This document shows positions 14,583-57,231 of a stretch of DNA of 64,000 nucleotides, piece after piece. Location: positions 1,102,599-1,166,598 of the forward strand of contig OY969571.1 of assembly GCA_963701165.1 (NCBI GenBank), given 5' to 3'. This DNA comes from an uncultured Actinomycetes bacterium (GTDB lineage: Bacteria > Actinomycetota > Thermoleophilia > Solirubrobacterales > 70-9). Under the pieces are notes generated by a model. That model was not told where the DNA came from. It was given only the letters and a program-made list of their open reading frames with translations, and did no database searches. The position numbers and the translations under genes are program-made. The first letter of the stretch is position 1, and each line of letters opens with the position of its first letter.

Positions 14583-14589
14583 GAAGCCC

Positions 14590-24047: not shown

Positions 24048-24086
24048 AGATGCGCAAGCCTAGAGCGCCGATATCGTCCGCCGCCG

Positions 24087-32133: not shown

Positions 32134-32138
32134 CCCGG

Positions 32139-33359: not shown

Positions 33360-33419
33360 CCCGAACGCGGCACACTTACATATCCGGTCCGACGGGCTAT
33401 CGGTAGGCGCCTGCCCGGC

Positions 33420-34673
33420 CTAAGCGATGTCGGCCACCGGCCGCCGACGATCCTGCTCCTGTGAAGGCACTTGCCCTCCGCTCTTCTCGGGAACTCTGAG
33501 CAAGACCGTCGATAAGACGACCGCCGCATCGATGGCCGCATAAAGGAGCACCAGGTTCCTCGTCACGATGGTAATCGCGGTGGCCTGGACGACTCCAGCG
33601 GTGAGCACAGCCGCAACGACGGTCAGCCAGGCGGCGCGGGCGATGCGGGTGCGGCGGGAGGAAAGCACGACAGCACTGAGGCCGACCAGCCAGATCATGT
33701 ACTGGGGGCTGAGGACCCGGCTGACGATCACGAACAGGAGGGTCACGGTGAAAACGAAGTCGCGACTCAGCGCGACGTCCTTCAGGTCCTCGCGGCCAGC
33801 GCGGATACCTCGATCCCGCAGTCGCCACCAGACCGCCGCGCCGGCGAGGACGAGGAAGGCGGCGACGTCGAGGGCTTTCGCGACGGCATCGCCCAAGCCG
33901 GAAGCGATCTCGTTCGAGCCGTAGCGGGCAATCAGGAACTGCCCTTCCCCGGTGACGACCTCGCGCAGTTTCCAGGGGAGCGCCCCGACCGATTCCACCT
34001 GCAGGCCCCGCTCTCCCTGATGGCCGAGGAATCCGAACGGATCGCTGAGGAGGATCGCAACGACGGCGAAGATCGCAGCGATGCTCGCGGCGGCGGCGCC
34101 CGCCGAGCGCAGCAGCCGTTCTCGATCCCACTCGCCGAAGAGTAGGAAGATCGGCCAGACCTTGATCGCCGCGCCGACGCCCGCCAGGACCCCGAACCAG
34201 CCGGGCCGGCGGTGAATCACGAGCAGTCCGGCCATCGCCAGCACGGTCGGAACTAGGTCGAAGCGCAGCAGCGGCATCCCGCCCCACGACTGGATGCCGG
34301 CAAGCAGGGGCATCGCCAGCAGCCAGATCCAGACCCCGGCGTCGCGCCGTCCCTCCTTCGCGAACCTGGTCATCAGCCAGAAGCCGACGAGGTCGATCAC
34401 CAGCATCATGACCATGAAGGAGAGGTCGAACTCCGCCCAGCTGAGCCGGGGCGCCAACATCACGAAGGCCGCCCCCGGGGGGTACTGCCAAAGCTCTTCG
34501 TTCGGCAGCCCTCCGGTTTCGACCATGAACTGCGACCACTCGTGGTAGAGGACGACGTCCTGGTACTGCGGACCGCTGGGAAGCCAGAACCCGACCTGCA
34601 CGATCATCAGGGCGCGGGTCAGGACCCAGACGGCAATCCAGATCGGAAGTTTGAACCTGGTCGCGAAGGGCAT
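33420..34673 (-). CDS. GT87/DUF2029-like glycosyltransferase, tandem paralog 3 (more diverged)
   Basis: The ATG at 34673 gives MPFATRFKLPIW. QDVVLY, WQYPPGAAFVMLAP and SPQYMIW are present. Confidence 0.6.
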   Translation of the reverse strand: MPFATRFKLPIWIAVWVLTRALMIVQVGFWLPSGPQYQDVVLYHEWSQFMVETGGLPNEELWQYPPGAAFVMLAPRLSWAEFDLSFMVMMLVIDLVGFWLMTRFAKEGRRDAGVWIWLLAMPLLAGIQSWGGMPLLRFDLVPTVLAMAGLLVIHRRPGWFGVLAGVGAAIKVWPIFLLFGEWDRERLLRSAGAAAASIAAIFAVVAILLSDPFGFLGHQGERGLQVESVGALPWKLREVVTGEGQFLIARYGSNEIASGLGDAVAKALDVAAFLVLAGAAVWWRLRDRGIRAGREDLKDVALSRDFVFTVTLLFVIVSRVLSPQYMIWLVGLSAVVLSSRRTRIARAAWLTVVAAVLTAGVVQATAITIVTRNLVLLYAAIDAAVVLSTVLLRVPEKSGGQVPSQEQDRRRPVADIA

Positions 34674-34738
34674 CCCGAAGGCGGCAGATTGGCAGATTTG
34701 CGCAGACACGTGGGCGATCCCCGGGCTGGGCGCGCGAC

Positions 34739-34795
34739 AATATATAGATTGATATCCCTCTTATTAATTAGTCAAACACAATTAGGCGAACTGTC
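34739..34795. promoter_or_regulatory. AT-rich island in the divergent intergenic region between GT87 paralog 3 and the matrixin gene; probable divergent promoter/regulatory region
   Basis: aatatatagattgatatccctcttattaattagtcaaacacaattagg stands out sharply against the GC-rich flanks. AAGGAG (34806..34811) and a TTG start at 34821 follow. Confidence 0.4.
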
Positions 34796-34820
34796 GCCAC
34801 TCGCAAAGGAGAGAAGAGAC

Positions 34821-36148
34821 TTGGAAAATGCCAAGCGAGTAACCCGCTACTGCGCCGGGCTGGGTGCCTTGGTGTGCCTTTTGCTGCCAGCAACCGCAGC
34901 GGCCGCCCCAAAGAAGGTGCCTTATGACGATCTGCCGCTACCGATTCAGCCGAGCTTCGTCGGCGTTTCAAAATGGAACCACCTTGATGTGACTTACGGG
35001 TTCGTAAATGGGACGGCTGACATTGCCGGGGATGGTGAGCGCCAAGCCGTCAAAGAAGCGTTTGCCCTATGGAGCGCGAGCTCACCGTTGTCCTTCGCGG
35101 AAACCAGCCCCGTCAGCGCCGACATAGAAATCAGCTGGGGCACGGGTGAACACGGGGACGGCTTTCCATTCGACGGAACCGGCGGCATACTCGCTCACGC
35201 GTTTTATCCATCAGACGGTCGAATCCACTTCGATGATGCGGAGACCTGGACTACGGCCACTCGCAGCAACTCCGCCGATCCGCGTGATCTGGTCACGGTC
35301 GCCGCTCACGAGATCGGGCACGCGATTGGCCTGGGCCACTCGGTCGACTCCTCAGCCTTGATGTACGAATTTTATTCGGGCAGCCATCGCTTCCTGGCTA
35401 ACGACGACATCGAAGGAATCGCCTCTCTATACCCCACTCGATGGCGCCTGAGAAACACTGCCAGCTCCGGATCGGTGGATGTAGAATTCGATTTTGGCGA
35501 GAGCGGGAACAAGTTCGTCTCCGGTGACTGGGACGGCAACGGCACGCGCACGCTCGGCACCTACAACCCGTCCTCGGGGGTTTGGAAGCTGCGCAATACC
35601 AACAGCGGGGGAACGCCGGACATCACCTTCCAGTTCGGCGGTGGGCCTGGAACCGCGCCATCGCCGGCGACTGGAATGGCGACGGGATCGACACCATCGG
35701 CGTCTTTGACCCGACCAACGGCAACTGGAACCTCCGCGACTCGAACAGCGCCGGCGGGGCCAACCACGCCTTCCAGTATGGGGGCAGCCCGTGGACGAGC
35801 GCGGTGGTCGGAGACTGGAACGGCGACGGGACGGACACCATCGGCGTCTACGACCCCAGCGCTGGCAACTGGAATCTGCGCGACTCGAACAGTGCCGGCG
35901 GAGCAAATCACGCGTTCCAGTACGGAGGGGGACCCTGGACCACTCCTATTGTCGGCGATTGGGACGGCAATGGGACCGACACCATCGGAGTGTACGACCC
36001 GAGTGCAGGCAACTGGAATCTGCGTGATGCTAACAGCGGCGGCAGTCCGAAATATTCGTTCCAGTACGGCGGAGGTGTATGGAACCGAGCCGTGACCGGC
36101 GACTGGGATGGCAACGGGACCGACACCATCGGAGTGGTGCGCGACTGA
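34821..36148 (+). CDS. Secreted matrixin-family (M10) zinc metalloprotease fused to five FG-GAP/VCBS-like 48-aa repeats; frame broken by one apparently missing base at 35646..35647
   Basis: TTG start after AAGGAG. Signal peptide ...LVCLLLPATAAAA. HEIGHAIGLGHS is the zinc site and ALMY is the Met-turn. The repeats GDW[DN]G[DN]GxDTIGVYDPSxGNWNLRDSNSAGG...FQYGG.PW continue in frame 2 (track ORF 35582..36148). The junction FQFGGG|PWNRAIAGDW is restored if CC is CCC. Confidence 0.75.
35523..36145 (+). repeat. Tandem coding repeat, 4.3 units of 144 bp (48 aa)
   Basis: Unit starts were verified at 35523, 35666 (143 bp after the first, i.e. one base short), 35810, 35954 and 36098. Each begins GG(N)GA(Y)TGG. 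Confidence 0.85.
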
Positions 36149-47207: not shown

Positions 47208-47729
47208 ATGCCTAAGATCCGCCGGTTGGAGTTCCTCCCCGCACCCGACCGGCTCGAAGCGCCCGAGGACGAGGTGCAGGTCTGGCGCGTGAACCTCGAC
47301 ACAGTCGCTTCGCGGCGGGCGCTGCGCGAGATCCTCAGCCGCTACCTGGGCCCGCCGGCGAGCGAGCTGCGGTTCGAGACGGGCCGGTATGGCAAGCCGC
47401 GCCTGGCGAGCCCCTCAGGCGAGCTGGCCTTCAACCTCAGCCACTCCGGCTCCCTCGCCCTGGTCGCGGTTGCCCGTCGCGAGGTCGGCGTCGACGTCGA
47501 GCGGATCCGGACCAAACGGCCGGTCGACTTCTACCGCCGCTGGGCGGACCGCGAGGCGCGGGTCAAGTGCCTCGGCACGGGCCTCACGGGTCCCGTCCCC
47601 GCGGATGCCATTGAGCCGGCCATCCACCGCCTGGACGTCGGAGCCGGCTACGCGGCTTCGGTCGCCGTCCTCGGACCGGCGAAGCTGCGCGGCTGGACGT
47701 TTGGCCCACACCGCTCCGATAAGTCGTGA
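47208..47729 (+). CDS. Sfp-type 4'-phosphopantetheinyl transferase
   Basis: FNLSHSGSLALVAV, GVDVERI and WADREARVKCLGTG. Confidence 0.75.
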   Translation: MPKIRRLEFLPAPDRLEAPEDEVQVWRVNLDTVASRRALREILSRYLGPPASELRFETGRYGKPRLASPSGELAFNLSHSGSLALVAVARREVGVDVERIRTKRPVDFYRRWADREARVKCLGTGLTGPVPADAIEPAIHRLDVGAGYAASVAVLGPAKLRGWTFGPHRSDKS

Positions 47730-47744: not shown

Positions 47745-49262
47745 TTGATGACCTTGAGTCGGCGGGCTGGAATATTCGTGCTTGCCCTGGGATTGCTGAT
47801 CGCGCTTGCGGGCGGCAGTGCCCAGGCGGCAAGCCTGCAGACGGTCGGGACCGGCTTCGACGAACCGATCTTCGTCACCTCCGCCCCGGACAACCCGGAC
47901 CGGCTGTTCGTCGTCGAGCGCAAGGGCAGGGTGATCGAAGTCCTCCCCGGCGCCCGCTCGGTCTTCGCCGACCTGCGGCCGGCGGCCGGCTGCGAAGGCG
48001 ACTGCAGCGGCGAGCGGGGGCTGCTCTCAATCGCGCTCGCACCCGACTTCGCCACCAGCGGCCGCTTCTTCGTCTTTTACGGCGAAGACCAGGGAGAAGG
48101 AGACATCCACGTCGCCGAAATGCAGGCGAACGGCAGCTTCGCCCCGATCGGCACCCTCCGCAACCTGCTGACGATCCCCCACCCCACCAGAAGCAACCAC
48201 TACGGCGGACAACTCCAGTTCGGCCCCGAAGGCAACCTCTTCATCTCCACCGGCGACGGTGGCGGCAGCAACGATCCAGATCACAACGCCCAGGACCTGA
48301 CCAGCCTCCTGGGCAAGATCCTCCGCATCGACCCCGATCCCAGCGGCCTCCTCCAATACACCGTGCCCGCCGGCAACCCGTTCGGCGACGAGATCTGGTC
48401 CTACGGGCTGCGCAACCCCTTCCGCTTCTCCTTCGACCGGGGCGGCAGCGGCCTCTGGATCGGCGACGTCGGTCAGGGGCAACGCGAGGAGGTCGACTGG
48501 GGACCGGCTCCGGGCCTCGGTGGCGGCTTCAACTTCGGCTGGAGCTGCTTCGAGGGCACGGCCCTGGGGGCGGCACCCGACCCGGCGTGCGCCGGGCAAC
48601 CCGCCGAGGCTTTCGTCGCACCGATCTTCGACTACCCGCACATCCCACCCGAAGGCGGCTGCCCCAACGGCTTCGCGATCATCGGCGGCTATGTCTCCCG
48701 CGATCCCGGCATCAGTGGACTCTTCGGCCGCTACCTCTACGGCGACCTCTGCGATGGCAGGATCCGCTCCTTCGCTATCGGTCCAGGCCAGGCATACGCC
48801 AGCGATCGCCCCGAGGGCATGCAGGCCTTCGGGCTCAACTCCTTCGGCGAGGACTCCTGCGGCCGCCTCTACGCGGTCTCCGGCGCCGGCGCGGTCTATC
48901 GGATCGTTGGCGGCGAACCGACGAACTGCACGGGCGCGGCGCCCACGCCCGTACCGGTGCTCAACCCCTCCTTCGTCGGCATCAAGCCCCTCTCGCGCCG
49001 GGTGCTGCGCAACCGCCGCGCCCTGATCACCGCCTGGGTCTCGCCCTGCAAAGGCCGCGTCGGCGATCCGGTCACCCTTTGGCGCGGCCGCCAACGCCTC
49101 GGCACCAGGCACTTCGACCGCGTCTGCACGGCCCGCTTCCGTCCCAAGATCAGCCGCCGCCTCAACTTCCGGGCGACGGTCAAAGCCGACGACACCTACG
49201 TCGCGGCGATCTCCCGCAAGCTGACGCTGAAGCCGAAGAAGCGCCCCCGGCGCCACCGCTGA
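47745..49262 (+). CDS. Secreted PQQ-dependent sugar (glucose/sorbosone) dehydrogenase-like beta-propeller with a basic C-terminal extension
   Basis: Signal peptide ...LIALAGGSAQA. ERGLLSIALAPDF, HYGGQLQFGPEGNLFISTGDGG and GLRNPFRFSFD are present. Confidence 0.75.
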   Translation: MMTLSRRAGIFVLALGLLIALAGGSAQAASLQTVGTGFDEPIFVTSAPDNPDRLFVVERKGRVIEVLPGARSVFADLRPAAGCEGDCSGERGLLSIALAPDFATSGRFFVFYGEDQGEGDIHVAEMQANGSFAPIGTLRNLLTIPHPTRSNHYGGQLQFGPEGNLFISTGDGGGSNDPDHNAQDLTSLLGKILRIDPDPSGLLQYTVPAGNPFGDEIWSYGLRNPFRFSFDRGGSGLWIGDVGQGQREEVDWGPAPGLGGGFNFGWSCFEGTALGAAPDPACAGQPAEAFVAPIFDYPHIPPEGGCPNGFAIIGGYVSRDPGISGLFGRYLYGDLCDGRIRSFAIGPGQAYASDRPEGMQAFGLNSFGEDSCGRLYAVSGAGAVYRIVGGEPTNCTGAAPTPVPVLNPSFVGIKPLSRRVLRNRRALITAWVSPCKGRVGDPVTLWRGRQRLGTRHFDRVCTARFRPKISRRLNFRATVKADDTYVAAISRKLTLKPKKRPRRHR

Positions 49263-49311: not shown

Positions 49312-51930
49312 TTGACGTCCACCCGGCAAAACGAGATCGCGAATTTCGAGATCGGCCCAGGCGAGCTCGCCTTCGACGCGAGGATCGGCGAGATCGAGAA
49401 GCGGGTCTGGTTCCGCTCCGAGACCGCCGTCACGCCCTACCCCGAGGCCGCCCTCGTCACCTGCCTGCTGCCGGCGATGGGCCGCGGCGGGACGCTGAGG
49501 ATGAGTGAGCCGATCAGCCCCCGGGTCCTGCGCACCCAGCGCGAGTACCAGGCGGTCCAGCGGGCCTGGTCGCTTTCCTGGCCCTTCGGCGACCCACCGC
49601 TGGAGGAGGTCGAGGTGGTCGCCCCGGTTCGCCCGGCAGAGGTCCGGCAGCCGGTGGGGCGGGTCGCTGCCTTCTTCAGCGGCGGCGTCGACTCCTGGTC
49701 GACCGTGCTCGAGAACCCCGACATCACCGACCTGATCTTCATCCGCGGGTTCGACATCCTGCCCCGCCTCGCCCACCAGGAGGGGCTCGCGGACCGGGTC
49801 GAGGCGCGGCTGCGGGCCGCGGCAGACGAGCTCGGGCTCCATCTGCACACGGTGGAGACCAACCTCCGCGAGCTCTCCGAAGCGACCGGGCCCGAGCAGC
49901 CGCTCTCCCGCTGGGAGTCCTACTACGGCTGCGCGGTCACCGCGGTCGCCCACTTCCTCGGCCCGCTCTTCGACCGGGTGCTGATCGCCGGCGACTCCGA
50001 CTACGAGGTGATGGACACGCGCGGGGCGGCCTGGATGGTCGACCAGTTGTGGAGCAACGAGAACTTGGAGATCGTCGACGACGGCGGCCGCTTCAGCCGG
50101 GCCGAGCGGACGGTGCGGATCGCCTCTCACCCGATCGTGCGGAAGAGCCTGCGGGTCTGCTGGGAGAACCCGGACGGCGCCTACAACTGCGGGCGCTGTC
50201 GCAAGTGCCTGATGACGATGGCGACCCTGGAGACCGCGGACGCGCTGGGGCAGGTCGAGACCTTCCCCGACGAGATCGACCTCGACGCGGTGGCCGAGCT
50301 GACGCTGCCGGTGACGGTCCTGCTGACGCTGTGGGAAGACATCCTCGACGCCGCGCGCCGGGCCGGTAAGCCCGAGCTCGAGCGCGCCGTCGCCACGGCG
50401 GTCTCCCGCAGCCGACAGCTGCTCGAGTTGCCGCCGGGATACCGGCGCCGGAACCTGCCGGGGCCAGCGCCGACGGGCGGAGACGAGACCGCCGCCGACG
50501 GCACACTGCTGGCCACGCCGGAGACCGCTGCCCTCCTCACCGCAGGCGCGCCGCTCGCGCTCCTGGTCGGCAGCTACGACGGCTCCGGCAACTACGGCGA
50601 CATCGCCCAGCTCGACGGGGCTCTCGGCCTGCTCGAGCGCCTCGATTCCGACCTCCTCGTCCTGCCCGTGGTCGAGCGGCGGTTCGCGGGAACCCATAAG
50701 ACGATGGCGACGGAGTTGGTCCACCACCCCCGGCACGTCCTCTATTTCTACGGCGGCAGCGGTCCCCGAGACGAGGGACTCGTGCCCGTCGAGCCACCGC
50801 AGGGGGTCCCGCTGGCGATCTCCTACCTCTACGGAGGCGGCTTCCTCAACCCCTCCTGGGGCAGGCGCAAGCTGGCGATGCTGAGCGCCGTCGAGGACTT
50901 CGTCGCCGACGCCGGCAGGGTGGTCCGGCTCGCCTCCGGGCAGCAGGTGGACGCGGGCTGGATTGCCGGCCTCGACCCCGCCGAGGCCGAGCTGCTGCGC
51001 CGGTTCGAGCTCTGGGGCGCACGCGACGACGCCTCCGCCGAGACCCTGGCCGAGTTGGGGGCAAGCGGGCCCGCGTTCAACGGCGGCGACGACTCGGTCG
51101 GCATCCTGACGGCAATCGGAGCCGGATCCGGGCCCGAGCAGTCCGGCTCCCCGCTCGTCGTCAACGTCCACTTCGCCGAGCACGAGTGGGTCACCGACCA
51201 GCCCGACTCGGTCCGAGAGTTCGACGTCCGGCTCCTGGCCGAGCTCGCCCGTCTCGCCGGCCGGCCGCTGCAGGTGCGACCGCTGCTTGCCTACCTCGAC
51301 CCCAGGATCGACGAGCGTCCCGGCCTCGAGCGCTTCGCCGCAGCCTGCGCCGAGCGCGAGATCGAGCTGATGAGCGAGCCGTGCGTCCTGCGCCCCGCCG
51401 GCGTCGGAGACCTGGCCGGCGAGCTGGGCGACGCGGCGCTCACCGTCAGCTCCTCCTACCACGTCGCCCTCACCTCGCTGCTGATGGCGATCCCGACCGC
51501 GCTCCTCCGCGACAACGACTACTACGCGCAGAAGGCGCAGGGCCTGCTCTCCGACTTCGGCCTGCCACCGGATTTCTCACCCCGCTCCTCCGACGACCCC
51601 GAGGCCGCGGCAGCGGCGATCGCCCCCCACCTCCTCGATCCGGAGCAGCGGAGGCGGACGCGGCACCGGCTCGCGGACGCGGCGAGCCGAGTGCAGCGGC
51701 GGCGGGTCGAGACCGAGGCGAGGCTCTTGGCCCTGATCGCCGGGGGCGCGCTGGCCGCGACCGGGACGGCGGCGGGTCCCGCCCCCACCTCCGCCCCGGA
51801 CGACGGGCGAGCGGCGGCGGCCGAGCGGCGAGCCGCCGAGGCGGAGTCGAGCCTCCGAGAGCTCTACGGCTCCCGCTCCTGGGCACTCACCGCACCGTTG
51901 CGACGCCTGGCCAACTACCGTCGCAGCTGA
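49312..51930 (+). CDS. Uncharacterised QueC-like PP-loop ATPase domain fused to a polysaccharide pyruvyl-transferase (CsaB/WcaK-like) domain, with a coiled-coil SRSW..PLRR tail
   Basis: TTG start. AAFFSGGVDSWST lies at aa 119..131 and CWENPDGAYNCGRCRKC at aa 283..299. From about aa 414 the sequence reads LLVGSYDGSGNYGDIAQ, YLYGGGFLN, WGARDDASAETL and VSSSYHVALTSLLMAIPTALL. The tail is GSRSWALTAPLRRL. Confidence 0.65.
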   Translation: MTSTRQNEIANFEIGPGELAFDARIGEIEKRVWFRSETAVTPYPEAALVTCLLPAMGRGGTLRMSEPISPRVLRTQREYQAVQRAWSLSWPFGDPPLEEVEVVAPVRPAEVRQPVGRVAAFFSGGVDSWSTVLENPDITDLIFIRGFDILPRLAHQEGLADRVEARLRAAADELGLHLHTVETNLRELSEATGPEQPLSRWESYYGCAVTAVAHFLGPLFDRVLIAGDSDYEVMDTRGAAWMVDQLWSNENLEIVDDGGRFSRAERTVRIASHPIVRKSLRVCWENPDGAYNCGRCRKCLMTMATLETADALGQVETFPDEIDLDAVAELTLPVTVLLTLWEDILDAARRAGKPELERAVATAVSRSRQLLELPPGYRRRNLPGPAPTGGDETAADGTLLATPETAALLTAGAPLALLVGSYDGSGNYGDIAQLDGALGLLERLDSDLLVLPVVERRFAGTHKTMATELVHHPRHVLYFYGGSGPRDEGLVPVEPPQGVPLAISYLYGGGFLNPSWGRRKLAMLSAVEDFVADAGRVVRLASGQQVDAGWIAGLDPAEAELLRRFELWGARDDASAETLAELGASGPAFNGGDDSVGILTAIGAGSGPEQSGSPLVVNVHFAEHEWVTDQPDSVREFDVRLLAELARLAGRPLQVRPLLAYLDPRIDERPGLERFAAACAEREIELMSEPCVLRPAGVGDLAGELGDAALTVSSSYHVALTSLLMAIPTALLRDNDYYAQKAQGLLSDFGLPPDFSPRSSDDPEAAAAAIAPHLLDPEQRRRTRHRLADAASRVQRRRVETEARLLALIAGGALAATGTAAGPAPTSAPDDGRAAAAERRAAEAESSLRELYGSRSWALTAPLRRLANYRRS

Positions 51931-51931
51931 C

Positions 51932-53188
51932 GTGCCCAGTGACCCACGACACGAGATCGCGAGCATCTCCTCGGGTCCTGGCGAGCTGACCTTCGAGGCG
52001 CGGCTGCAGGGACGGGAGCCGCAGCGGATCTGGCTGCGCTCCGACACCGAGGTGGAGCCCTACCCGGAAGCCGCCCTGGCGGCGATGCTAATGCCGGCGA
52101 TGCGAACCGGCGGGACGCTGGCCATGAGCGAGCCGATCAGCCCGCGGGTCCTGCGCATGCAGCGCGAGTTCCAGGCGATCCAGCGGGCCTGGTCGCGGGA
52201 GTGGGTGTTCGACGACCCCCCGCTGGAGGAAGTTGAGGTGAGCGCCCCGGTCCGCCCGGTGCAGCGGCGCGACCCGACCGGCCGCGTGGCGGTCTTCTTC
52301 AGCGGCGGCGTCGACTCCTGGTCCACGATCCTCGGCGAGCCGGAGGTGACGGACCTGATCTTCGTCCGCGGCCTCGACATCCTGCCCGGTTTCAGTCACC
52401 AGGAGGGGCTCGCGGACCGGGTCGAAGCGCGCCTCCGGGAGGCGGCAGACGACCTCGGCCTGCGCCTGCACTCCGTCGAGACCAACGCCCGCGACCTCTC
52501 AGAGCCGAACGGTCCGGGCTATCCCGAGATCCGCTGGGAGTCCTATTACAACTCGCTGTTGTCGGCGGTCGCGCTCTTCCTCGGGCCGCTCTTCGACCGG
52601 GTGCTGATCTCGACCGGTCTGGCCTACTTCAACCAGTCGCAGATCGGCGCCAGCTGGATGGTCGACCAGCTCTGGGGCAACGAGAACCTCGAAATCGCCG
52701 ACGCGGGAGGGCTGCTCGGCCGGGTTGCGCGGGTCGAACGGATCGCCGCCCACCCGACCGTGCAGAAGAGCCTGCGGGTCTGCTGGCACAACCCCGACGG
52801 CGCCTACAACTGCGGCCGCTGCCGCAAGTGCCTGGTGACGATGGCGAACCTGGAAGCGCTCGGCCGGCTGGCGGAGTTCGAGACCTTCCCCTCCGAGCTC
52901 GGCCCCGAACATCTCGAGCTACTCGCCGCCCAGGAGGTCCAGGAACCGCTCCACCTCGACCTCTGCGAAGAAGCCCTGGAGGCGATGCGGGAGAGCGGCA
53001 AGCCGGAGCTGGAGCGGGCCTTCGAGCAGCTCGTCGCCAGAGGCAGGCGGACGCTGGGGCGCGACGGCGGCCCCGTCGAGGAGGCAGAGCGCCGCGCCGC
53101 CGAGGCGGAGGCGAAGCTCGACGAGGTTCTGGGTTCACGCTCCTGGAAGGTCACGGCGCCGCTGCGGCGTCGGCGCGGCAGCGCATAA
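51932..53188 (+). CDS. Uncharacterised QueC-like PP-loop ATPase, paralog 2
   Basis: The GTG start is 1 nt after the previous stop. AVFFSGGVDSWST, HQEGLADRVEARLR, CWHNPDGAYNCGRCRKC and the tail GSRSWKVTAPLRRR are present. Confidence 0.65.
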   Translation: MPSDPRHEIASISSGPGELTFEARLQGREPQRIWLRSDTEVEPYPEAALAAMLMPAMRTGGTLAMSEPISPRVLRMQREFQAIQRAWSREWVFDDPPLEEVEVSAPVRPVQRRDPTGRVAVFFSGGVDSWSTILGEPEVTDLIFVRGLDILPGFSHQEGLADRVEARLREAADDLGLRLHSVETNARDLSEPNGPGYPEIRWESYYNSLLSAVALFLGPLFDRVLISTGLAYFNQSQIGASWMVDQLWGNENLEIADAGGLLGRVARVERIAAHPTVQKSLRVCWHNPDGAYNCGRCRKCLVTMANLEALGRLAEFETFPSELGPEHLELLAAQEVQEPLHLDLCEEALEAMRESGKPELERAFEQLVARGRRTLGRDGGPVEEAERRAAEAEAKLDEVLGSRSWKVTAPLRRRRGSA

Positions 53189-53189
53189 A

Positions 53190-54476
53190 TTGAGCGACGT
53201 GCCCGAGCCCCCCGCCCAGCGCATCACCGACCTGCGGCGGGAGCCGGGAGAGCTCTCCTTCGAGGCGCAGCTCGGCGGCGGCGAGCCGCGGCGGATCTGG
53301 TTCCACAGCGAGACCGAGGTGACGCCGAGCGCCGACGCGGCGCTGGCGGCCTGTCTGATGCCGGCGATGCGAACCGGCGGCAGGCTGGAGATCGACGAGC
53401 CGGTCAGCCCGCAGCTGCTGAGCAACCAGCGCGAATACCAGGCGATCCAGCGGGTCTGGTCCTTCGCCTGGAAGTACGACGAGGCCCCACTTGAGGAAGT
53501 CGAGGTGATCGCCCCGGTCCGCCCGGTGGAGCGCCGGCAACCGACTGGTCGCGTCGCTGCCTTCTTCAGCGGCGGCGTCGACTCGTTCGCGACGATCCTC
53601 GACAACCCGGAGGTCACCGACCTGATCTTCATCCGCGGCGTCGACATCCTGCCTCGCCTCGCCCACCAGGAGGGGCTCGCGGACCGGGTCGAGGCGCGCC
53701 TACGCGAGGCGGCCGAGGAACTGGACATGCCGCTGCACGTGGTCGAGACCAACGTGCGCGATCTCTCCGATCCCCTGATCCGCTGGGAGTGCTACTTCTC
53801 CAACCCGCTGCTCGCCGTCTCCCACTTCTTCGCCCCGCTCTTCGACCGGGTGCTGATCACCGGCGACACCGACCACGAGACCCAGCCAGCGATTGGCACT
53901 TCGCTCCTGATCGACCACCTCTGGAGCAGCGAGGACCTTGAGGTCATCGACTTCGGCGGCCGCCTTAACCGCGAGCAGCGAATTCAGCTGATCGCCGAGC
54001 ACCCGGTCGTGCGCCGCACCCTGCGCACTTGCTGGGAAAACCCCGACGGCGCCTACAACTGCGGCCGCTGCCGCAAGTGCCTGCTGACGATGATCTCGCT
54101 GGAGGCGATCGGAGCCCGCCAGGGGGTGGAGACCTTCCCGGCTGAGCTCGACGTCGGTCGTCTGGCCGAGCTGGAGCTGAACCAGCGGATCTCCCTCGCC
54201 CTCTGCGAAGACCTGCTCGCCACCGTCCGCGAACGGGGAAGAGCGGACATGGAGCCCGCCGTCGCGGCGTTCGTCGAAAAAGGAAGGCGGTCCCAGGGCC
54301 TGGCGAAGACCTACCGCTCGCGGCCGAGCCGGGACGGCGTCCCCGAGACGCTGTCCGGGGCCGAACAGGAAGCCCTCGAAGCGGAGCTGACAACGGTGCT
54401 GGAGTCCCGCTCTTGGCAACTGACGAAGCCGCTGCGCCGGCTCGGCGACAGGCTGCGGGCGCGGCGCGGCGCCTGA
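53190..54476 (+). CDS. Uncharacterised QueC-like PP-loop ATPase, paralog 3
   Basis: The TTG start is 1 nt after the previous stop. AAFFSGGVDSFAT, HQEGLADRVEARLR, CWENPDGAYNCGRCRKC and the tail ESRSWQLTKPLRRL are present. Confidence 0.65.
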   Translation: MSDVPEPPAQRITDLRREPGELSFEAQLGGGEPRRIWFHSETEVTPSADAALAACLMPAMRTGGRLEIDEPVSPQLLSNQREYQAIQRVWSFAWKYDEAPLEEVEVIAPVRPVERRQPTGRVAAFFSGGVDSFATILDNPEVTDLIFIRGVDILPRLAHQEGLADRVEARLREAAEELDMPLHVVETNVRDLSDPLIRWECYFSNPLLAVSHFFAPLFDRVLITGDTDHETQPAIGTSLLIDHLWSSEDLEVIDFGGRLNREQRIQLIAEHPVVRRTLRTCWENPDGAYNCGRCRKCLLTMISLEAIGARQGVETFPAELDVGRLAELELNQRISLALCEDLLATVRERGRADMEPAVAAFVEKGRRSQGLAKTYRSRPSRDGVPETLSGAEQEALEAELTTVLESRSWQLTKPLRRLGDRLRARRGA

Positions 54477-54483
54477 GCGACGC

Positions 54484-56130
54484 TCAGGCGCCGCAGACGA
54501 GCGCGCCCTGGTCGGCGTCGACGAGCAGTTGCCAGGGCCGCGCGAGGTTGTCGCGAGGGATGTAGAGGCGGGTCGTCGAACCGGCCGCGAGTCCGGTCCG
54601 CAGCGGGTATTCATGCTGCGCGAAACGCCGCAGCCGCAGGGTGCCTTCGCCGCCCGCACCGAACTCGATCGTCGTCACCCCCGGGCGCAGCGCCAGCGGC
54701 GCGGCGGCGGCCCTGACGCACTCGCGCTCTCCCCGCGCCCCGGCGGGCGCTTCTTCGATCCCCAGCGGCAGGGCGTTGGCGAGCACCAGGTCCGCCTGCG
54801 CGCGGCCTTGTTCGGGCGCCGCGGCAAGCTCGGCCGGCGAGTAGGCGGGTGAGCCGTACTCCCCGGCCGCTTCCAGGTACTCCCCGGCTTCGACTTCGCC
54901 CAGGTAGACGGTGCCGGCGACTTCAGGGGAGAGCCGGAACGCCGGTTCGATGGTGCGATCGGCGATCTCGATCGCCGCCAGGCCGGCCCGGGTCAGCACC
55001 GTCTGCTTCTCGAAGAAGTCCCGGCCTTCGCGCAGCGGCACCAGGTTGAAGCCGGCGATGACGGCGGTGAGGGCCGCACCGGCGACGAGCGCCCCGCGCT
55101 TGAACCGCACCCCCTGCAGCAGGTTGACCGCGATCAGCAGGGCGAAGAGGCCGCCGACGTAGAGGTAGCGGCTGGAGTAGGGCTCGCGACCGGGCCCCTC
55201 GTTGAACGCGGCCAGGAACCAGAAGGTCGCCGCGGCGGCGAGCACGGGCCAGAGTCCGGCGAAGAACCCGCGCCGGCGATAGCCGCCGTAGGCAGCCAGG
55301 GCCAGCAGCGCGATCAGCAGCGGCGCGCCCCATTTCGAGCGACCGACGACTTCGTCGGAGATCGTCCCCAGAGCGAGGACCGAGTCCAGCGAAGCGGTCA
55401 GCCCCTCCGAGACGTAGCCGGGCGAGACAAGGACGTTGTGGGCGCTGAGGTTGTTCTGGGCGTCATGCCCCCAGCCGAGGTACCAGCCCGCGTAGAGAAG
55501 CAGCGGCAGGCAAAAGACGTAGGCGCGCCGCAAGCCGCGCTCACGCCGGCGCTGGAGGACGTCTACCGCGGCGGCGACCGCGAAGGCGATCCCGAGGCTG
55601 GAGAAGGCGACCGAGACCACCAGGAAGGCGCAGGCAGCGCGGTCCCAGCGCTCGTCATCGTTCTCGAGCGCCAGCAGCGTCGCGATCCCGAACAGGGACG
55701 CGCCGACGAAGCCAATCTGGAAGGGCCAAAGCAGGTCCTGCCAGGCCGGGCCGAGGAAGAGCAGCAGGACCGCCGCGATCAGCGCCGGCCAGGGACCGAG
55801 GCGGCGCTGGGCGTAGACGAACAAGAGTCCGGCGACAATCAGCTGCAGCACCACCAGGAACACCAGTTCGGGCGTCATCGAGTCCATCCCGAAGAGGCGC
55901 AGGGAGGCCTGCATGATCAGCACCGGGAGCAGGACGATGTGCTCGTTATGGGGGTCGAGCAGGGTGGCGGCGGAGGGGTCCCGCCGCTGCATCAGGAACT
56001 CCCAGGAGTCCTGGAAGAAGGTGAGGTGGGCGCCGTAGCTGAGGATCACCGCCGCGGCGGCGGCCATCGCGACGGCGAGCAGGACGAGGGCGGCGTTCCT
56101 GCTCAGCCGCTCACGGTCTCGCGCGGCCAC
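54484..56130 (-). CDS. Polytopic membrane protein, family A (intact paralog of 27598..29246)
   Basis: 548 aa. FFQDSWEFLMQRRD...PHNEHIVLLPV...GPWPALIAAVLLLFLGPAW...YLGWGH... are present. The C-terminal roughly 170-aa soluble domain ends in VCGA. Confidence 0.6.
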   Translation of the reverse strand: MAARDRERLSRNAALVLLAVAMAAAAAVILSYGAHLTFFQDSWEFLMQRRDPSAATLLDPHNEHIVLLPVLIMQASLRLFGMDSMTPELVFLVVLQLIVAGLLFVYAQRRLGPWPALIAAVLLLFLGPAWQDLLWPFQIGFVGASLFGIATLLALENDDERWDRAACAFLVVSVAFSSLGIAFAVAAAVDVLQRRRERGLRRAYVFCLPLLLYAGWYLGWGHDAQNNLSAHNVLVSPGYVSEGLTASLDSVLALGTISDEVVGRSKWGAPLLIALLALAAYGGYRRRGFFAGLWPVLAAAATFWFLAAFNEGPGREPYSSRYLYVGGLFALLIAVNLLQGVRFKRGALVAGAALTAVIAGFNLVPLREGRDFFEKQTVLTRAGLAAIEIADRTIEPAFRLSPEVAGTVYLGEVEAGEYLEAAGEYGSPAYSPAELAAAPEQGRAQADLVLANALPLGIEEAPAGARGERECVRAAAAPLALRPGVTTIEFGAGGEGTLRLRRFAQHEYPLRTGLAAGSTTRLYIPRDNLARPWQLLVDADQGALVCGA

Positions 56131-57231
56131 CGGTGAGCGCGACGAAGGCGTGCCAGGAGGGCTTGGCCCGGAACTTCGGCCCGGCGCGGAAGAGCCCGAC
56201 CGAGTCGCAGAAGGTGCAGGATTCGGGCAGGTCCTTCCAGGAGAACCAGTAGGCGCTCTTGAGGTTGAGCCGCCGCGCGTTTTCGAGCAGGTACCCGTAG
56301 GAGGCCCGCAGCTGTTTCACCTGACCGCGGATCCCCTGCTCGAAGGCGACCTGCTGGAAGTTGTTCTCCGACCCCCAGCCGAGCTCGGTCAGGTAGAGCG
56401 CCGGGCGGTCGCGGTTTTCCCGCGCCACCTCGGTGAATTCCTCGATCATCCGTTCGAGGTCTTCGCTGTCGACCGCGTAGGGGTGGAGGTCGATCCCGTC
56501 GAAGCGGTTTTTGAAGCCCGGGATCGCGTAGAGACGTTCGAGGTAGGTCGTCGCCGGCAACCCTTTCCGGCCCTTCGCGGTCGGCTCGGCGAAGAGGCCG
56601 GCGAGGACCACTTTCGCCTTCGGGTCGACCGATTTGATCGCCTGGCTGGAGATCGTCACCAGCTTCGAGTAGGTCGAGGTCGAGACCGGGTAGGCGAAGT
56701 AGAAGAAGTTGGGCTCATTCCAGATCTGCCACTCGCGGATCGGGATCGGGTTGGCGATCGCCGGTTCGTAGTTGCGCCGATGCCGCCGGTCTGATCCCAG
56801 AACTCGCCCCCCGGGCCGTAGCGGGCGACGGCGGCGCTGAGGAAGTCGGCCCAGCCTTTGCGCTGCCTGGCGGTCGCCACCGGCATCGTCGTTTCCTTGC
56901 GGGTCGCCCAGCGCGGCGGCGAGCCGATCGCGGGCAGGACACGCAGCCCAGCGCGGGTGGCCAGTTCGAGCGCGGCGTCGAAGCCGCCCCAGTTGTAGGG
57001 GGAGTTCCGCGTTGGCTGAACCCCGGCCCAGGGCAGGGTGAGGCGGATGCTTTCGATCCCGCCGGCTTTCATGTAGCGGAAGTCTTCCGGGCCCAGCGGA
57101 GTCTGCGGGACGATCCCGAAGAACCCCCGCGGCGGCTGCGGGATCGGTTTCGCGGCACCGGTCTGGGTGCCGAGCACCAGGGCGAGGAGAAGGGCGGCGA
57201 GCAGGGGAAGAGCGAGGAGGCGTCTTTTCAT
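56111..57231 (-). CDS. Secreted clan GH-A-like hydrolase, paralog 2; frame broken by one apparently missing base around 56770..56800
   Basis: Track ORF 56656..57231 gives the signal peptide and N-terminal half up to GGEFWDQTGGIG. The other frame continues RNYEPAIANPIPIREWQIWNEPNFFYF...YLTELGWGS (track ORF 56111..56659 plus upstream codons). The whole gene is collinear with paralogs 1 and 3. Confidence 0.6.

What the first reader, a model, noticed from the sequence alone, without database searches (positions are those of the whole stretch)
49312..54476. Three tandem, translationally coupled paralogs of an uncharacterised QueC-like PP-loop ATPase family
All three proteins share a distinctive roughly 105-aa N-terminal domain (GPGEL(A/T/S)FEA...PYPEAAL...LPAMR.GG.L...EP(I/V)SP). 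A PP-loop motif follows at the same position (A(A/V)FFSGGVDS(W/F)). Conserved blocks are DLIF(I/V)RG.DILP, HQEGLADRVEARLR and PLFDRVLI, with a four-Cys cluster C-W-x-NPDGAYN-C-GR-C-RK-C (C-x10-C-x2-C-x2-C). The combination of SGGxDS and a C-terminal CxxCxxC zinc-type site is what I recall for QueC, which adenylates a carboxylate and converts it via an amide to a nitrile. Known glycan PP-loop amidotransferases of the WbpG/LfnA type have, from memory, a different layout. The genes use TTG/GTG/TTG starts and are separated by single nucleotides (stops end at 51930 and 53188; starts at 51932 and 53190), so they are made together. Triplication suggests a heteromer or three successive or alternative substrates. 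I know of no characterised system with this architecture, and it is my best candidate for a novel glycan-modification machine in this window.
Basis: partly seen in the sequence, partly recalled or inferred. Interest (0 to 1): 0.85.

Follow-up and report, generated by a model that had tools for sequence, protein, structure and literature searches.

The report
Uncharacterised PP-loop enzymes beside pyruvyl transferase
Three back-to-back copies of an unnamed, very widespread family of ATP-using "PP-loop" enzymes sit in a cell-surface sugar-polymer gene cluster of a soil actinobacterium, one fused to a pyruvate-adding enzyme, which suggests an undescribed chemical modification of bacterial surface sugars.

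Summary
Three + strand genes (49312-51930, 51932-53188, 53190-54476) lie 1 nt apart. Their products are 56-61% identical and share an N-terminal domain, an SGGVDS PP-loop and a Cys4 site. The Cys4 spacing is C-x9-C-x2-C-x2-C, not x10.

No Pfam, NCBIfam, PADLOC or PDB family claims them, and every database name is "hypothetical protein". AlphaFold models are confident (pLDDT 88-90). The SGGVDS lies on a strand-loop-helix. The core domain matches only PP-loop ATP pyrophosphatases (NcsA, GMP synthase, LarE, MnmA).

Similarity to QueC is real but confined to the PP-loop and the Cys4 zinc-type site. QueC's substrate motifs are absent. The WbpG/NASAT type has a different layout. QatC has the most similar gross layout.

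The family is large (2,165 50%-identity clusters at E<=1e-30) and spans many phyla.

That domain is the family's commonest fusion partner, in both orders, and its commonest neighbour across phyla, including Parafrankia. Core-core fusions and tandem arrays also recur.

Best reading: ATP-dependent adenylating enzymes that modify a glycan together with a pyruvyl transferase, possibly amidating the pyruvate carboxylate. The chemistry is inferred and untested.

The parts
49312..51930 (+). Gene A, 872 aa: PP-loop core, then pyruvyl transferase domain, then coiled coil and tail
   Evidence: ORF; GC3 0.93; domain map core 13-369, pyr 416-745
49312..50451 (+). A core module (N-domain, PP-loop Rossmann domain, Cys4, helical region)
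   Evidence: Alignment with B and C; tblastn self-hit 49312-50451
49678..49695 (+). A PP-loop SGGVDS (aa 123-128)
50158..50208 (+). A Cys4 cluster CWENPDGAYNCGRCRKC (aa 283-299)
   Evidence: aligns with the QueC zinc site in family members
50590..51507 (+). A polysaccharide pyruvyl transferase domain (PF04230, aa 427-732)
   Evidence: Pfam E 8.1e-9, 36.2 bits against cut-off 25.3, profile positions 1-276 of 280
51871..51906 (+). A C-terminal tail SRSWALTAPLRR, preceded by a coiled coil
51928..51934 (+). A/B junction: TGA stop, 1 nt, GTG start
   Evidence: Sequence read
51932..53188 (+). Gene B, 418 aa, core module only; the protein that was modelled
   Evidence: ORF; AlphaFold pLDDT 90.2, pTM 0.85
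52301..52318 (+). B PP-loop SGGVDS (aa 124-129), between strand 119-122 and helix 127-135
52781..52831 (+). B Cys4 cluster (C284, C294, C297, C300); all four invariant in 89 diverse members
53135..53170 (+). B tail SRSWKVTAPLRR
53186..53192 (+). B/C junction: TAA stop, 1 nt, TTG start
   Evidence: Sequence read
53190..54476 (+). Gene C, 428 aa, core module only
   Evidence: ORF; alignment
53568..53585 (+). C PP-loop SGGVDS (aa 127-132)
54030..54080 (+). C Cys4 cluster (aa 281-297)
54405..54440 (+). C tail SRSWQLTKPLRR

Best explanation
A, B and C are co-transcribed and probably translationally coupled paralogues of a large, unnamed family within the PP-loop ATP pyrophosphatase superfamily.

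Module layout: a family-specific N-terminal domain of about 100 aa, a Rossmann-type PP-loop domain that binds ATP through SGGVDS, a QueC/QatC-type Cys4 site (probably structural zinc), and a helical C-terminal region. In this lineage the module is followed by a coiled coil and a basic tail.

Proposed role: the enzymes act in the cytoplasm on a cell-envelope glycan or its lipid-linked precursor, together with a PF04230 pyruvyl transferase. In A that transferase is fused to the module.

Proposed chemistry: by analogy with all characterised carboxylate-activating PP-loop enzymes (QueC, NAD synthetase, asparagine synthetase, QatC/Cap9), the module adenylates a carboxylate, releasing PPi, and ammonia or an amine then displaces the AMP to give an amide. 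The most economical candidate for the carboxylate is the one that the pyruvyl transferase installs, the pyruvate ketal.

Paralogues: they most likely assemble as hetero-oligomers (pseudo-dimers).

What is shown: the genes, the paralogy, the PP-loop fold and motif, the absence of any named family, and the fusion and neighbourhood link to PF04230 and to other copies of the module.

What is inferred: ATP use, zinc binding, a carboxylate substrate, amide formation, and heteromer formation.

My probabilities: about 0.85 that it is a catalytically active PP-loop adenylating enzyme; about 0.65 that this trio modifies a glycan in concert with the pyruvyl transferase; about 0.25 that the target is specifically the pyruvate-ketal carboxylate and the product an amide.
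For: Fold and motif:
- The AlphaFold model of B has pLDDT 90.2 and pTM 0.85, and SGGVDS sits on a strand-loop-helix.
- The domain-only model (pLDDT 88.4) has as its top PDB matches NcsA, GMP synthase, LarE and MnmA, prob 0.98-1.00, E 1.5e-3 to 3e-2.
- The whole-chain search gave MnmA at prob 0.98.

Conservation: G126, D128, S129, R264 and all four Cys are invariant in 89 members that are 27-41% identical to B.

Superfamily signal:
- Pfam: 40 of 89 members hit QueC weakly (best E 4.3e-7), 42 hit DUF6395, 7 hit Asn_synthase and 3 hit Diphthami_syn_2.
- NCBIfam: asn_synth 39, QatC 16, QueC 8, LarE 8.
- The best PDB sequence hit of the diverse profile is QatC 9vlk, E 0.003, through the PP-loop and CGRCxxC patches.

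Link to pyruvyl transferase:
- A carries PF04230.
- Of 46 long family members, 18 carry PF04230 and 6 carry GT2.
- Among the 47 long forms mapped (those 46 plus window protein A), the fusion occurs in both orders: 13 core-pyr and 6 pyr-core. This implies independent fusion events.
- Among 121 genes within two positions of the family gene in 33 distant loci from many phyla, PF04230 is the commonest family (9), followed by GT2 (7) and GT1/GT4 (4).
- 22 of 28 close loci hold a pyruvyl transferase domain, 20 of them within 1.5 kb on the same strand.
- In Parafrankia sp. EAN1pec the family gene lies directly upstream of a PS_pyruv_trans gene in a Wzx/Wzy locus.

Association between copies:
- 12 core-core fusions, one core-pyr-core and one core-core-pyr.
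- Tandem arrays of 2-5 copies occur in Chloroflexi, Cyanobacteria, Nitrospirae, Planctomycetes and other phyla.

Context: the window is a glycan locus with rhamnose synthesis genes, many glycosyltransferases, GT87, a GT-C enzyme and Wzt with its carbohydrate-binding domain. None of the ORFs I scanned carries a UDP-sugar dehydrogenase domain (same calls). The only carboxylate-installing enzyme seen in the window is therefore A's own pyruvyl transferase domain.

Precedent: QueC-family enzymes can form amides with amines other than ammonia, as in protein deazaguanylation by Cap9 and QatC (PMC13279940, PMC13329287).
Against: - No biochemical data exist for any member of the family.
- All structural matches are weak (TM 0.3-0.43, no E below 1e-3). 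The fold assignment rests on concordance of several lines, not on one strong hit.
- The pyruvyl transferase link is frequent but not universal. Several distant members lie among housekeeping or unrelated genes: Sulfuricurvum and Aquisalinus, and the loci.
- No glutamine amidotransferase partner is consistently nearby. Asn_synthase and GATase_7 appear in only 2-3 of 121 neighbours.
- An amidated pyruvate ketal is not reported in the pyruvylation review I searched (PMC6801904). That leaves the idea without chemical precedent there.
- I could not measure Cys-Cys distances in the model.
- In some distant core-core fusions the second copy has a degenerate PP-loop. Not every copy in the family need be catalytic, although all three here are canonical.
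Confidence: 0.5

Rival explanations
1. The proteins are acetamidino-forming N-acetyl sugar amidotransferases, functional analogues of WbpG/LfnA/PseA/WbuX. The PP-loop would adenylate the carbonyl of an N-acetyl group on an amino sugar, and ammonia would convert it to an acetamidine.
For: NASATs are PP-loop enzymes of 300-400 aa with a Cys4 zinc site, about 120 residues before the PP-loop, and a role in O-antigen synthesis (PMC10607449; PMC13329287). The trio lies in a glycan locus.
Against: No TIGR03573/WbuX hit at E<=1 for the three proteins or among the families listed for 89 diverse members. In NASAT the Cys4 site lies N-terminal to the PP-loop, whereas here it lies C-terminal as in QueC. 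8WEX is absent from the top 50 Foldseek matches. No HisH/HisF-like ammonia-supplying partner was found among the window ORFs scanned. This reading does not explain the recurrent fusion to pyruvyl transferase.
Confidence: 0.12
2. The proteins are sulfur-inserting PP-loop enzymes of the NcsA/TtuA/LarE/MnmA type. The Cys cluster would hold an Fe-S cluster and the adenylated intermediate would be attacked by sulfide, giving a thiocarboxylate or thio-sugar derivative.
For: The top structural matches are thiolases and LarE. CxxCxxC motifs can bind Fe-S clusters. LarE-family models give weak hits in 8 of 89 members.
Against: The Cys4 pattern and its position align with the zinc site of QueC and QatC (PMC13279940). 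Catalytic [4Fe-4S] sites in this superfamily use three Cys and leave one Fe free (PMC13329287), whereas this family has four invariant Cys. No cysteine desulfurase or sulfur-carrier family is among the 25 families listed for the neighbours.
Confidence: 0.08
3. The proteins are mainly non-catalytic: scaffolds or chain-length regulators of glycan assembly that use their coiled coils, with a relic nucleotide-binding fold.
For: All three end in a coiled coil and a basic tail. In some distant core-core fusions the second copy has a degenerate PP-loop. A Wzt with a carbohydrate-binding domain lies in the same window, a setting where coiled-coil terminators such as WbdD are known (my own knowledge).
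Against: G, D and S of the PP-loop, R264 and all four Cys are invariant across 89 members at 27-41% identity, and all three window copies keep a canonical SGGVDS. The coiled coil and tail are restricted to certain lineages, whereas the catalytic-type core is universal.
Confidence: 0.07
4. The proteins are true 7-deazaguanine enzymes: QueC for preQ0 synthesis, or QatC/Cap9-like protein deazaguanylation in phage defence.
For: Weak hits to QueC and QatC models. The gross layout resembles QatC, with N- and C-terminal extensions around a Rossmann core and a Cys4 site (PMC13279940).
Against: The scores are far below the family thresholds (12.6 bits against 22 for PF06508). The YxQxHxxE, VPxRN and YPDC motifs of QueC are absent (motifs from PMC13329287). 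No queD, queE, TGT, qatA, qatB, qatD or CD-NTase genes lie nearby. PADLOC gives no hit.
Confidence: 0.03

Closest known systems
QueC (7-cyano-7-deazaguanine synthase, PF06508/TIGR00364)
   Same: An SGGxDS PP-loop at the start of a five-stranded Rossmann-type domain. A Cys-x(8-9)-Cys-x2-Cys-x2-Cys site at the end of that domain, colinear and at similar spacing.
   Different: About 220 aa with no N- or C-terminal extensions. The substrate motifs YxQxHxxE, VPxRN and YPDC are not present here. hhalign gives only 38% probability over 54 columns. Pfam scores fall below threshold. The genomic context is different.
QatC (QueC-family protein of the QatABCD anti-phage system; PDB 9vlk, 9zee)
   Same: It is the best PDB sequence match of the diverse family profile (E 0.003). 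It has the same gross layout: an N-terminal extension, a Rossmann PP-loop domain, a Cys4 zinc site and a C-terminal helical extension (PMC13279940). It uses the activated carboxylate to form an amide with an amine other than ammonia.
   Different: The similarity is limited to two short patches. The NF041925 model does not hit the window proteins, and PADLOC gives no hit. No qatA, qatB or qatD neighbours are present. QatC's substrate is 7-carboxy-7-deazaguanine plus a protein N-terminus.
N-acetyl sugar amidotransferases (WbpG/LfnA/PseA/WbuX, TIGR03573; LpNASAT, PDB 8WEX)
   Same: A PP-loop enzyme of similar size that works on glycans. Its PP-loop lies about 120 residues from the N-terminus, and it has a Cys4 zinc site.
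   Different: The Cys4 site lies N-terminal to the PP-loop (Cys44/47/79/82, PMC10607449), not C-terminal. No HMM similarity was detected. No link to pyruvyl transferases is known to me.
Pfam DUF6395 (PF19932)
   Same: It is the most frequent weak Pfam hit among diverse members (42 of 89, best E 1.6e-3; 2 of 46 long forms at E 1.3e-4). It is probably the nearest catalogued sister family.
   Different: It is itself uncharacterised, and no paper in the library mentions it. The window proteins do not hit it at E<=1.
WbdD-type multidomain terminal-modification enzymes of ABC-transporter-dependent O-antigen assembly
   Same: Two modifying activities are fused in one protein (kinase plus methyltransferase in WbdD; here a PP-loop module plus a pyruvyl transferase). 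A coiled coil and a basic C-terminus are present. A Wzt with a carbohydrate-binding domain lies in the same region. Terminal pyruvylation of an O antigen is known in Klebsiella O1 (PMC10629545, title and abstract only).
   Different: There is no sequence relationship. The comparison rests on my own knowledge of WbdD. Wzt lies 23 kb away, and nothing shows that the trio acts at a chain terminus.

Membership tests
PP-loop ATP pyrophosphatase superfamily (adenine nucleotide alpha-hydrolase-like) | SGGxD(S/T) motif located between the first beta-strand and the first helix of the domain | tested here: met
   SGGVDS is present in A, B and C. In the model of B, the strand is 119-122, the loop follows, and the helix is 127-135. 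G126, D128 and S129 are invariant in 89 diverse members.
PP-loop ATP pyrophosphatase superfamily (adenine nucleotide alpha-hydrolase-like) | Rossmann-type alpha/beta fold superposable on solved PP-loop enzymes | tested here: met
   Foldseek with the domain-only model gives NcsA, GMP synthase, LarE and MnmA among its top matches at prob 0.98-1.00, with NAD synthetase lower (prob 0.63-0.94). The scores are weak, however: E 1.5e-3 to 9e-2 and TM 0.3-0.43.
PP-loop ATP pyrophosphatase superfamily (adenine nucleotide alpha-hydrolase-like) | ATP is cleaved to AMP and PPi through an adenylated substrate | not testable with these tools
   This needs an enzyme assay.
QueC (PF06508 / TIGR00364) | The profile score reaches the curated threshold | tested here: not met
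   Only protein C hits PF06508, at E 0.098 and 12.6 bits against a cut-off of 22. There is no NCBIfam hit.
QueC (PF06508 / TIGR00364) | C-terminal Cys-x8-Cys-x2-Cys-x2-Cys zinc site | tested here: met
   A C-x9-C-x2-C-x2-C cluster lies at the equivalent place and aligns with QueC profile positions of about 155-207. Metal binding itself was not tested.
QueC (PF06508 / TIGR00364) | Substrate motifs YxQxHxxE, VPxRN and YPDC (PMC13329287) | tested here: not met
   These columns are invariant in my QueC alignment but are not aligned or conserved in the family.
QueC (PF06508 / TIGR00364) | Genomic linkage to queD, queE or other 7-deazaguanine genes | tested here: not met
   No such gene is among the window ORFs scanned or among the 25 families listed for neighbours of distant members.
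N-acetyl sugar amidotransferase (TIGR03573, WbuX/WbpG/LfnA/PseA) | Match to the family model | tested here: not met
   There is no hit at E<=1 for A, B or C. The model is not among the families listed for the 89 diverse members.
N-acetyl sugar amidotransferase (TIGR03573, WbuX/WbpG/LfnA/PseA) | Cys4 zinc site N-terminal to the PP-loop (LpNASAT Cys44/47/79/82, PP-loop at 122-127) | tested here: not met
   Here the four Cys lie about 155-175 residues after the PP-loop (against PMC10607449).
QatC (NF041925; QatABCD defence) | Match to the QatC model and neighbouring qatA, qatB and qatD genes | tested here: not met
   There is no NCBIfam or PADLOC hit for A, B or C. Only weak hits occur in 16 of 89 members. 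No Qat partners are in the window.
Polysaccharide pyruvyl transferase (PF04230), for the C-terminal half of A only | Profile match above the gathering threshold over the whole domain | tested here: met
   36.2 bits against 25.3, profile positions 1-276 of 280, aa 427-732. PEP-dependent activity was not tested.
DUF6395 (PF19932) | Match to the family model | tested here: not met
   A, B and C give no hit at E<=1. Among diverse members, 42 of 89 hit only weakly (best E 1.6e-3).

The most novel reading that the evidence does not exclude
The family carries out a glycan modification that has not been described. A hetero-oligomeric PP-loop machine would adenylate the carboxylate of a freshly installed pyruvate ketal and convert it to an amide. 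The product could be a primary amide, an amide-linked amine or amino acid, or, by a second QueC-like round, a nitrile. This would neutralise or re-functionalise the negative charge that pyruvylation normally confers. Because the family has more than 2,000 clusters at 50% identity across many phyla, such a modification would be widespread and so far overlooked.
Probability: 0.25. Interest if true: 0.8.

Novelty: new variant of a known kind. Interest (0 to 1): 0.6.

Why it matters
PP-loop enzymes perform a small set of ATP-driven reactions: amidation, thiolation and nitrile formation. Each newly characterised branch has revealed new biology, most recently protein deazaguanylation in phage defence.

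This branch is large, with 7,460 representatives at 50% identity at E<=1e-3 and 2,165 at E<=1e-30. It is unnamed in Pfam, NCBIfam and the literature I could search.

It has a clear, testable genomic partner, the polysaccharide pyruvyl transferase. Pyruvate ketals are key charge-bearing epitopes, for example as ligands of S-layer-homology domains and as O-antigen caps. An enzyme that rewrites them would change how surface glycans are read.

The finding also provides cultured entry points, namely Parafrankia sp. EAN1pec Franean1_0749 and Aquihabitans daechungensis DSM 27986, and a defined set of invariant residues for mutagenesis.

Tried and rejected
- Whole-chain Foldseek against the PDB gave no match at E<=1e-3. 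Apart from a local MnmA hit, the list was noise. The domain-only model was needed to see the PP-loop enzymes.
- Sequence and profile searches of the PDB with B alone or with the close-homologue profile found nothing related. Only the diverse profile reached QatC, weakly.
- hhalign against E. coli QueC alone gave 20% probability. Against a 9-sequence QueC alignment it gave 38%. This is too weak to claim QueC membership.
- Literature searches for DUF6395, 'QueC-like' with polysaccharide, PP-loop with pyruvyltransferase, and pyruvyl with amidation and adenylation returned nothing relevant.
- My own jackhmmer profile of the pyruvyl transferase domain was too narrow. It missed the Pfam-annotated PF04230 gene next to the Parafrankia homologue. 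Its count for distant loci (6 of 48) is therefore an underestimate, and I rely on the Pfam count instead.
- Several encoding-contig look-ups landed on short or uninformative contigs.
- A search for a carrier-protein motif that might explain the conserved PPTase upstream found none in the window.
- A search for the SRSWxLTxPLRR tail on other enzymes of the window or of the related loci found it only on family members.
- Cys-Cys distances could not be checked because model coordinates are not exposed.
- Defence-system membership was rejected.

Full report
**1. The observation**

The + strand carries three consecutive ORFs:
- A: 49312-51930, 872 aa, TTG start.
- B: 51932-53188, 418 aa, GTG start.
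- C: 53190-54476, 428 aa, TTG start.

The sequence at the junctions reads TGA-C-GTG and TAA-A-TTG, so one nucleotide separates each stop from the next start. Third-position GC is 0.88-0.93 in these frames, against 0.70 for the region, as expected for real genes in a high-GC genome. No promoter-like or terminator-like site falls inside the array.

Identity to A is 61% for B and 56% for C, and B and C are 57% identical. All the quoted blocks are shared. The PP-loop SGGVDS lies at aa 123-128 (A), 124-129 (B) and 127-132 (C). The Cys cluster CW(E/H)NPDGAYNCGRCRKC is present in all three.

Two corrections are needed:
- The Cys spacing is C-x9-C-x2-C-x2-C, not x10.
- A is twice as long as B and C. 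It carries a PF04230 polysaccharide pyruvyl transferase domain at aa 427-732 (E 8e-9, above the Pfam cut-off). This domain lies between the shared core and a C-terminal coiled coil plus SRSWxxTxPLRR tail that all three proteins have.

**2. What the proteins are**

No curated library claims the core. Pfam gives only a faint QueC hit at the Cys cluster of C (E 0.098, 12.6 bits against a cut-off of 22). NCBIfam and PADLOC give nothing. Sequence and profile searches of the PDB with close homologues give nothing related.

Homologues are plentiful but anonymous. The 120 best-scoring of the 425 hits in the 90%-clustered collection are at least 50% identical; every name that sources give them is 'hypothetical protein', apart from one stray NUDIX label, and the named sources are Solirubrobacterales or Actinomycetota metagenome-assembled genomes.

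An exhaustive profile search of 1.84 billion representatives at 50% identity returns 7,460 proteins at E<=1e-3 and 2,165 at E<=1e-30.

A scan of one genome per species finds the family in many phyla: Actinomycetota, Chloroflexi, Planctomycetota, Cyanobacteria, Campylobacterota, Desulfobacterota, Acidobacteriota, Omnitrophota, Nitrospirae and others. Cultured carriers include Aquihabitans daechungensis and Aquisalinus luteolus. Parafrankia sp. EAN1pec carries it as Franean1_0749, also annotated 'hypothetical protein'.

The nearest relatives of the window (87-90% protein identity) are Solirubrobacterales genomes.

**3. Fold**

An AlphaFold model of B built on 63 homologues is confident (pLDDT 90.2, pTM 0.85). 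It places SGGVDS between a strand (119-122) and a helix (127-135). After that come alternating strands and helices, and the Cys cluster lies just before and inside helix 298-309.

The whole chain finds no PDB match at E<=1e-3, apart from a local MnmA alignment at prob 0.98.

A model of residues 96-335 alone (pLDDT 88.4) gives a list headed by PP-loop ATP pyrophosphatases:
- NcsA: prob 0.99-1.00, E 1.5e-3.
- GMP synthase: prob 1.00.
- LarE: prob 0.98-0.99.
- MnmA: prob 0.99.
- NAD synthetase, lower in the list.

TM-scores are only 0.3-0.43, so this is a divergent member of that fold.

Across 89 family members that are 27-41% identical to B, the invariant residues are G126, D128, S129, R264 and the four cysteines. 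This is the pattern expected of an active PP-loop enzyme with a metal site.

**4. Relationship to QueC and other PP-loop branches**

Scanned one by one against Pfam, the 89 diverse members give weak hits as follows:
- QueC: 40 members, best E 4.3e-7.
- DUF6395: 42 members, best E 1.6e-3.
- Asn_synthase: 7 members.
- Diphthamide synthase: 3 members.

In NCBIfam they touch asparagine synthase (39), QatC (16), QueC (8), LarE (8) and other ATP pyrophosphatase models, but never the WbuX/NASAT model.

I built a QueC profile from E. coli QueC and eight viral homologues. It matches 88 of 89 family members in two colinear patches only:
- The PP-loop, at QueC positions 6-35.
- The zinc site, at QueC positions of about 155-207, where TCY..CGxCxxC aligns with VCW..CGRCxKC.

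Profile-profile comparison gives 38% probability over the first 54 columns.

The QueC substrate motifs VPxRN and YPDC are invariant in my QueC alignment, and the motif YxQxHxxE is largely so (Y, Q, H and E are invariant); a 2026 survey of PF06508 defines all three (PMC13329287). They are not present here. 'QueC-like' is therefore right for the ATP site and the Cys4 site and wrong for the substrate pocket.

The diverse profile's best PDB sequence hit is QatC (9vlk, E 0.003), through the same two patches. QatC has the same gross layout: an N-terminal extension, a Rossmann domain at residues 145-377, a Cys4 zinc site (C334, C354, C357, C360) and a C-terminal extension (PMC13279940). The Qat partner genes and model hits are absent here.

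In the LpNASAT crystal structure the zinc-binding Cys44/47/79/82 precede the PP-loop at 122-127 (PMC10607449).

**5. Context and partners**

The window is a long cell-envelope glycan region. It contains:
- Wzy_C and an initiating sugar transferase.
- dTDP-rhamnose synthesis genes: a nucleotidyltransferase (NTP_transferase), a 4,6-dehydratase-type enzyme, a dTDP-4-dehydrorhamnose 3,5-epimerase and RmlD.
- Many GT2 and GT4 genes, three GT87 genes and a PMT_2 GT-C enzyme.
- Methyltransferases and epimerases.
- A Wzt ABC ATPase with its carbohydrate-binding Wzt_C domain.

Within Solirubrobacterales the local order is conserved: epimerase, GT2, PPTase, GSDH, the array, then a GH-like gene, PNPOx and DJ-1; a membrane protein lies just after the array here and in a few close loci.

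The most informative signal reaches beyond this order and concerns the pyruvyl transferase:
- Of 46 long family members, 18 carry PF04230, 6 carry GT2, and single cases carry TylF, FemAB/GNAT or an epimerase domain.
- Among the 47 long forms mapped (those 46 plus window protein A), the PF04230 fusion occurs as core-pyr (13, including A) and as pyr-core (6). It therefore arose more than once.
- I scanned the two genes on either side of the family gene in 33 distant loci from many phyla (121 genes). PF04230 is the most frequent family among them (9), followed by GT2 (7), GT1/GT4 (4), ABC_tran (4), Asn_synthase (3) and Wzx-type flippases (3). PF04230 genes are normally a very small fraction of a genome, so I take this as a large enrichment. 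That is an inference, because I ran no formal control.
- In 22 of 28 close loci a pyruvyl transferase domain is present, in 20 of them within 1.5 kb on the same strand.
- In Parafrankia sp. EAN1pec the family gene is directly followed by a PS_pyruv_trans gene, a GT1, Wzy, GT4, Wzx, GT4 and GT2.

The link is not universal. In Sulfuricurvum and Aquisalinus, and in some metagenomic contigs, the neighbours are housekeeping or redox genes. One core-core fusion lies beside a GT2, a sulfotransferase and two methyltransferases.

**6. Multiplicity**

The triplication is an instance of a property of the whole family:
- Twelve of the 47 long forms mapped are core-core fusions, one is core-pyr-core and one is core-core-pyr.
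- Tandem arrays occur in unrelated phyla: five copies in a Ktedonobacterales genome, three in Okeania and in a Nitrospirae genome, and two in many others.
- Most Solirubrobacterales have an A-type copy fused to the transferase plus a C-type copy. The window and its closest relative L001 have a third copy.

By Rosetta-stone logic this points to physical association of paralogous cores, that is, pseudo-dimers. To my knowledge QueC and many other PP-loop enzymes are dimers, and LpNASAT crystallises as one (PMC10607449).

In some distant core-core fusions the second copy has a degenerate PP-loop (FSGGVDA or FGGGxDG) but keeps the Cys4 site. This suggests a catalytic subunit paired with a non-catalytic one. 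All three copies in the window are canonical.

**7. How it most likely works**

Shown:
- Three co-oriented genes with 1-nt spacers.
- A PP-loop fold with an invariant ATP-pyrophosphate motif.
- A QueC/QatC-type Cys4 site.
- Fusion and adjacency to pyruvyl transferase and to further copies of the module.

Inferred:
- The enzymes bind ATP, adenylate an oxygen of their substrate and release PPi, and a nucleophile then displaces AMP.
- In the branches that give the most weak profile hits, namely QueC, QatC and asparagine synthase, the activated group is a carboxylate and the product is an amide.
- None of the window ORFs I scanned has a UDP-sugar dehydrogenase domain, so no uronic acid pathway is visible there. 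A's own PF04230 domain would install a carboxylate, the pyruvate ketal.
- Two sequential modifications fused in one polypeptide are a known design. WbdD, a kinase plus methyltransferase, is the example I have in mind, from my own knowledge.

I therefore favour ATP-dependent amidation, or another substitution, of the pyruvate-ketal carboxylate on a lipid-linked or nascent glycan at the cytoplasmic face. B and C would be partner subunits. The coiled coil and basic tail would serve oligomerisation or membrane association; they are found only in Actinomycetota and Chloroflexi members.

My estimates are:
- About 0.85 that these are active adenylating enzymes.
- About 0.65 that they modify a glycan in concert with the pyruvyl transferase.
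- About 0.25 for the specific pyruvate-amide chemistry. I found no chemical precedent for it.

The rivals and the grounds against each:
- Acetamidino formation as in NASAT: different layout, no model hit, no HisH/HisF-like partner.
- Sulfur insertion through an Fe-S cluster: four Cys ligands at the zinc position and no sulfur-relay neighbours.
- A mainly structural role: contradicted by the invariant catalytic-type residues.
- True 7-deazaguanine chemistry: motifs and partner genes are absent.

**8. Novelty and verdict**

The superfamily and the general mechanism are known. This branch is not described in Pfam, NCBIfam, PADLOC, the PDB or the searchable literature. The same holds for its N-terminal domain, its habit of multiplying and fusing with itself, and its partnership with pyruvyl transferases.

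I rate it a new variant of a known kind.
- The fused pyruvyl transferase domain is the key clue.
- QueC-likeness is confined to the ATP site and the Cys4 site.
- QatC is the closest solved relative by sequence profile, though only weakly (E 0.003), and it shares the gross layout.

Interest is moderate to high. The family is large and the hypothesis is concrete and testable, but the function is still only inferred.

Noticed in passing
window 56111-57231 (- strand): A glycoside-hydrolase-like gene (weak Glyco_hydro_42 hit) is split into two ORFs that overlap by 4 nt. The catalytic-type motif IREWQIWNEPN lies in a different frame, upstream of the second ORF's start. This points to a frameshift, so either a pseudogene or a sequencing error. 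Both halves are conserved next to the array in 22 related loci.
   Followed up: partly
window 51871-51906, 53135-53170, 54405-54440; also L001-L040 family ORFs: A short coiled coil followed by the basic tail S(R/T)SW(R)LTxPLRR ends every family member in Actinomycetota and Chloroflexi loci. It is found on no other ORF of those loci. In L022 9248-11236 the chain continues past the tail into a TylF-like methyltransferase. Its function is unknown; membrane association or oligomerisation are possibilities.
   Followed up: partly
proteins P0160, P0169, P0170, P0185, P0205, P0246 (distant core-core fusions): The second core copy has a degenerate PP-loop (FSGGVDA, FSSGVDA or FGGGxDG) but keeps the Cys4 site. 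This suggests a catalytic subunit paired with a pseudo-enzyme in those lineages.
   Followed up: partly
window 47208-47729 (+): An Sfp-type 4'-phosphopantetheinyl transferase lies two genes upstream of the array. Its position is conserved in 10 related loci. No carrier-protein (GxDS) motif was found in any frame of the 64-kb window.
   Followed up: partly
window 47745-49262 (+): A glucose/sorbosone-dehydrogenase-type (GSDH) protein with a hydrophobic N-terminus, probably secreted, lies directly upstream of gene A. It is found in 17 related loci, upstream of the array in most of them. Whether it is functionally linked to the array is unknown.
   Followed up: no
window 25488-26747 (+) and 23874-25436 (+): A Wzt ABC-transporter ATPase carries the C-terminal carbohydrate-binding Wzt_C domain, which implies export gated by a terminal glycan modification. 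The ORF just upstream, where a Wzm permease would be expected, has no Pfam hit.
   Followed up: no
window about 32000-36100: This stretch has lower GC (0.63-0.65 against about 0.70). It holds GT87 genes and a matrixin-type metallopeptidase (Peptidase_M10, 34542-36095, E 2e-49), which is an unusual neighbour in a glycan locus.
   Followed up: no
window 54484-56130 (- strand): A 548-aa polytopic membrane protein with no Pfam or PADLOC hit is convergent with gene C. It is conserved in 5 close loci (58-81% identity). It could be an unrecognised glycan polymerase or GT-C-like enzyme.
   Followed up: no
window 13584-14633 (- strand) and 1706-6247 (- strand): A DUF4917 protein sits inside the glycan region. 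A 1,513-aa Lhr-type helicase lies at the left end of the window.
   Followed up: no
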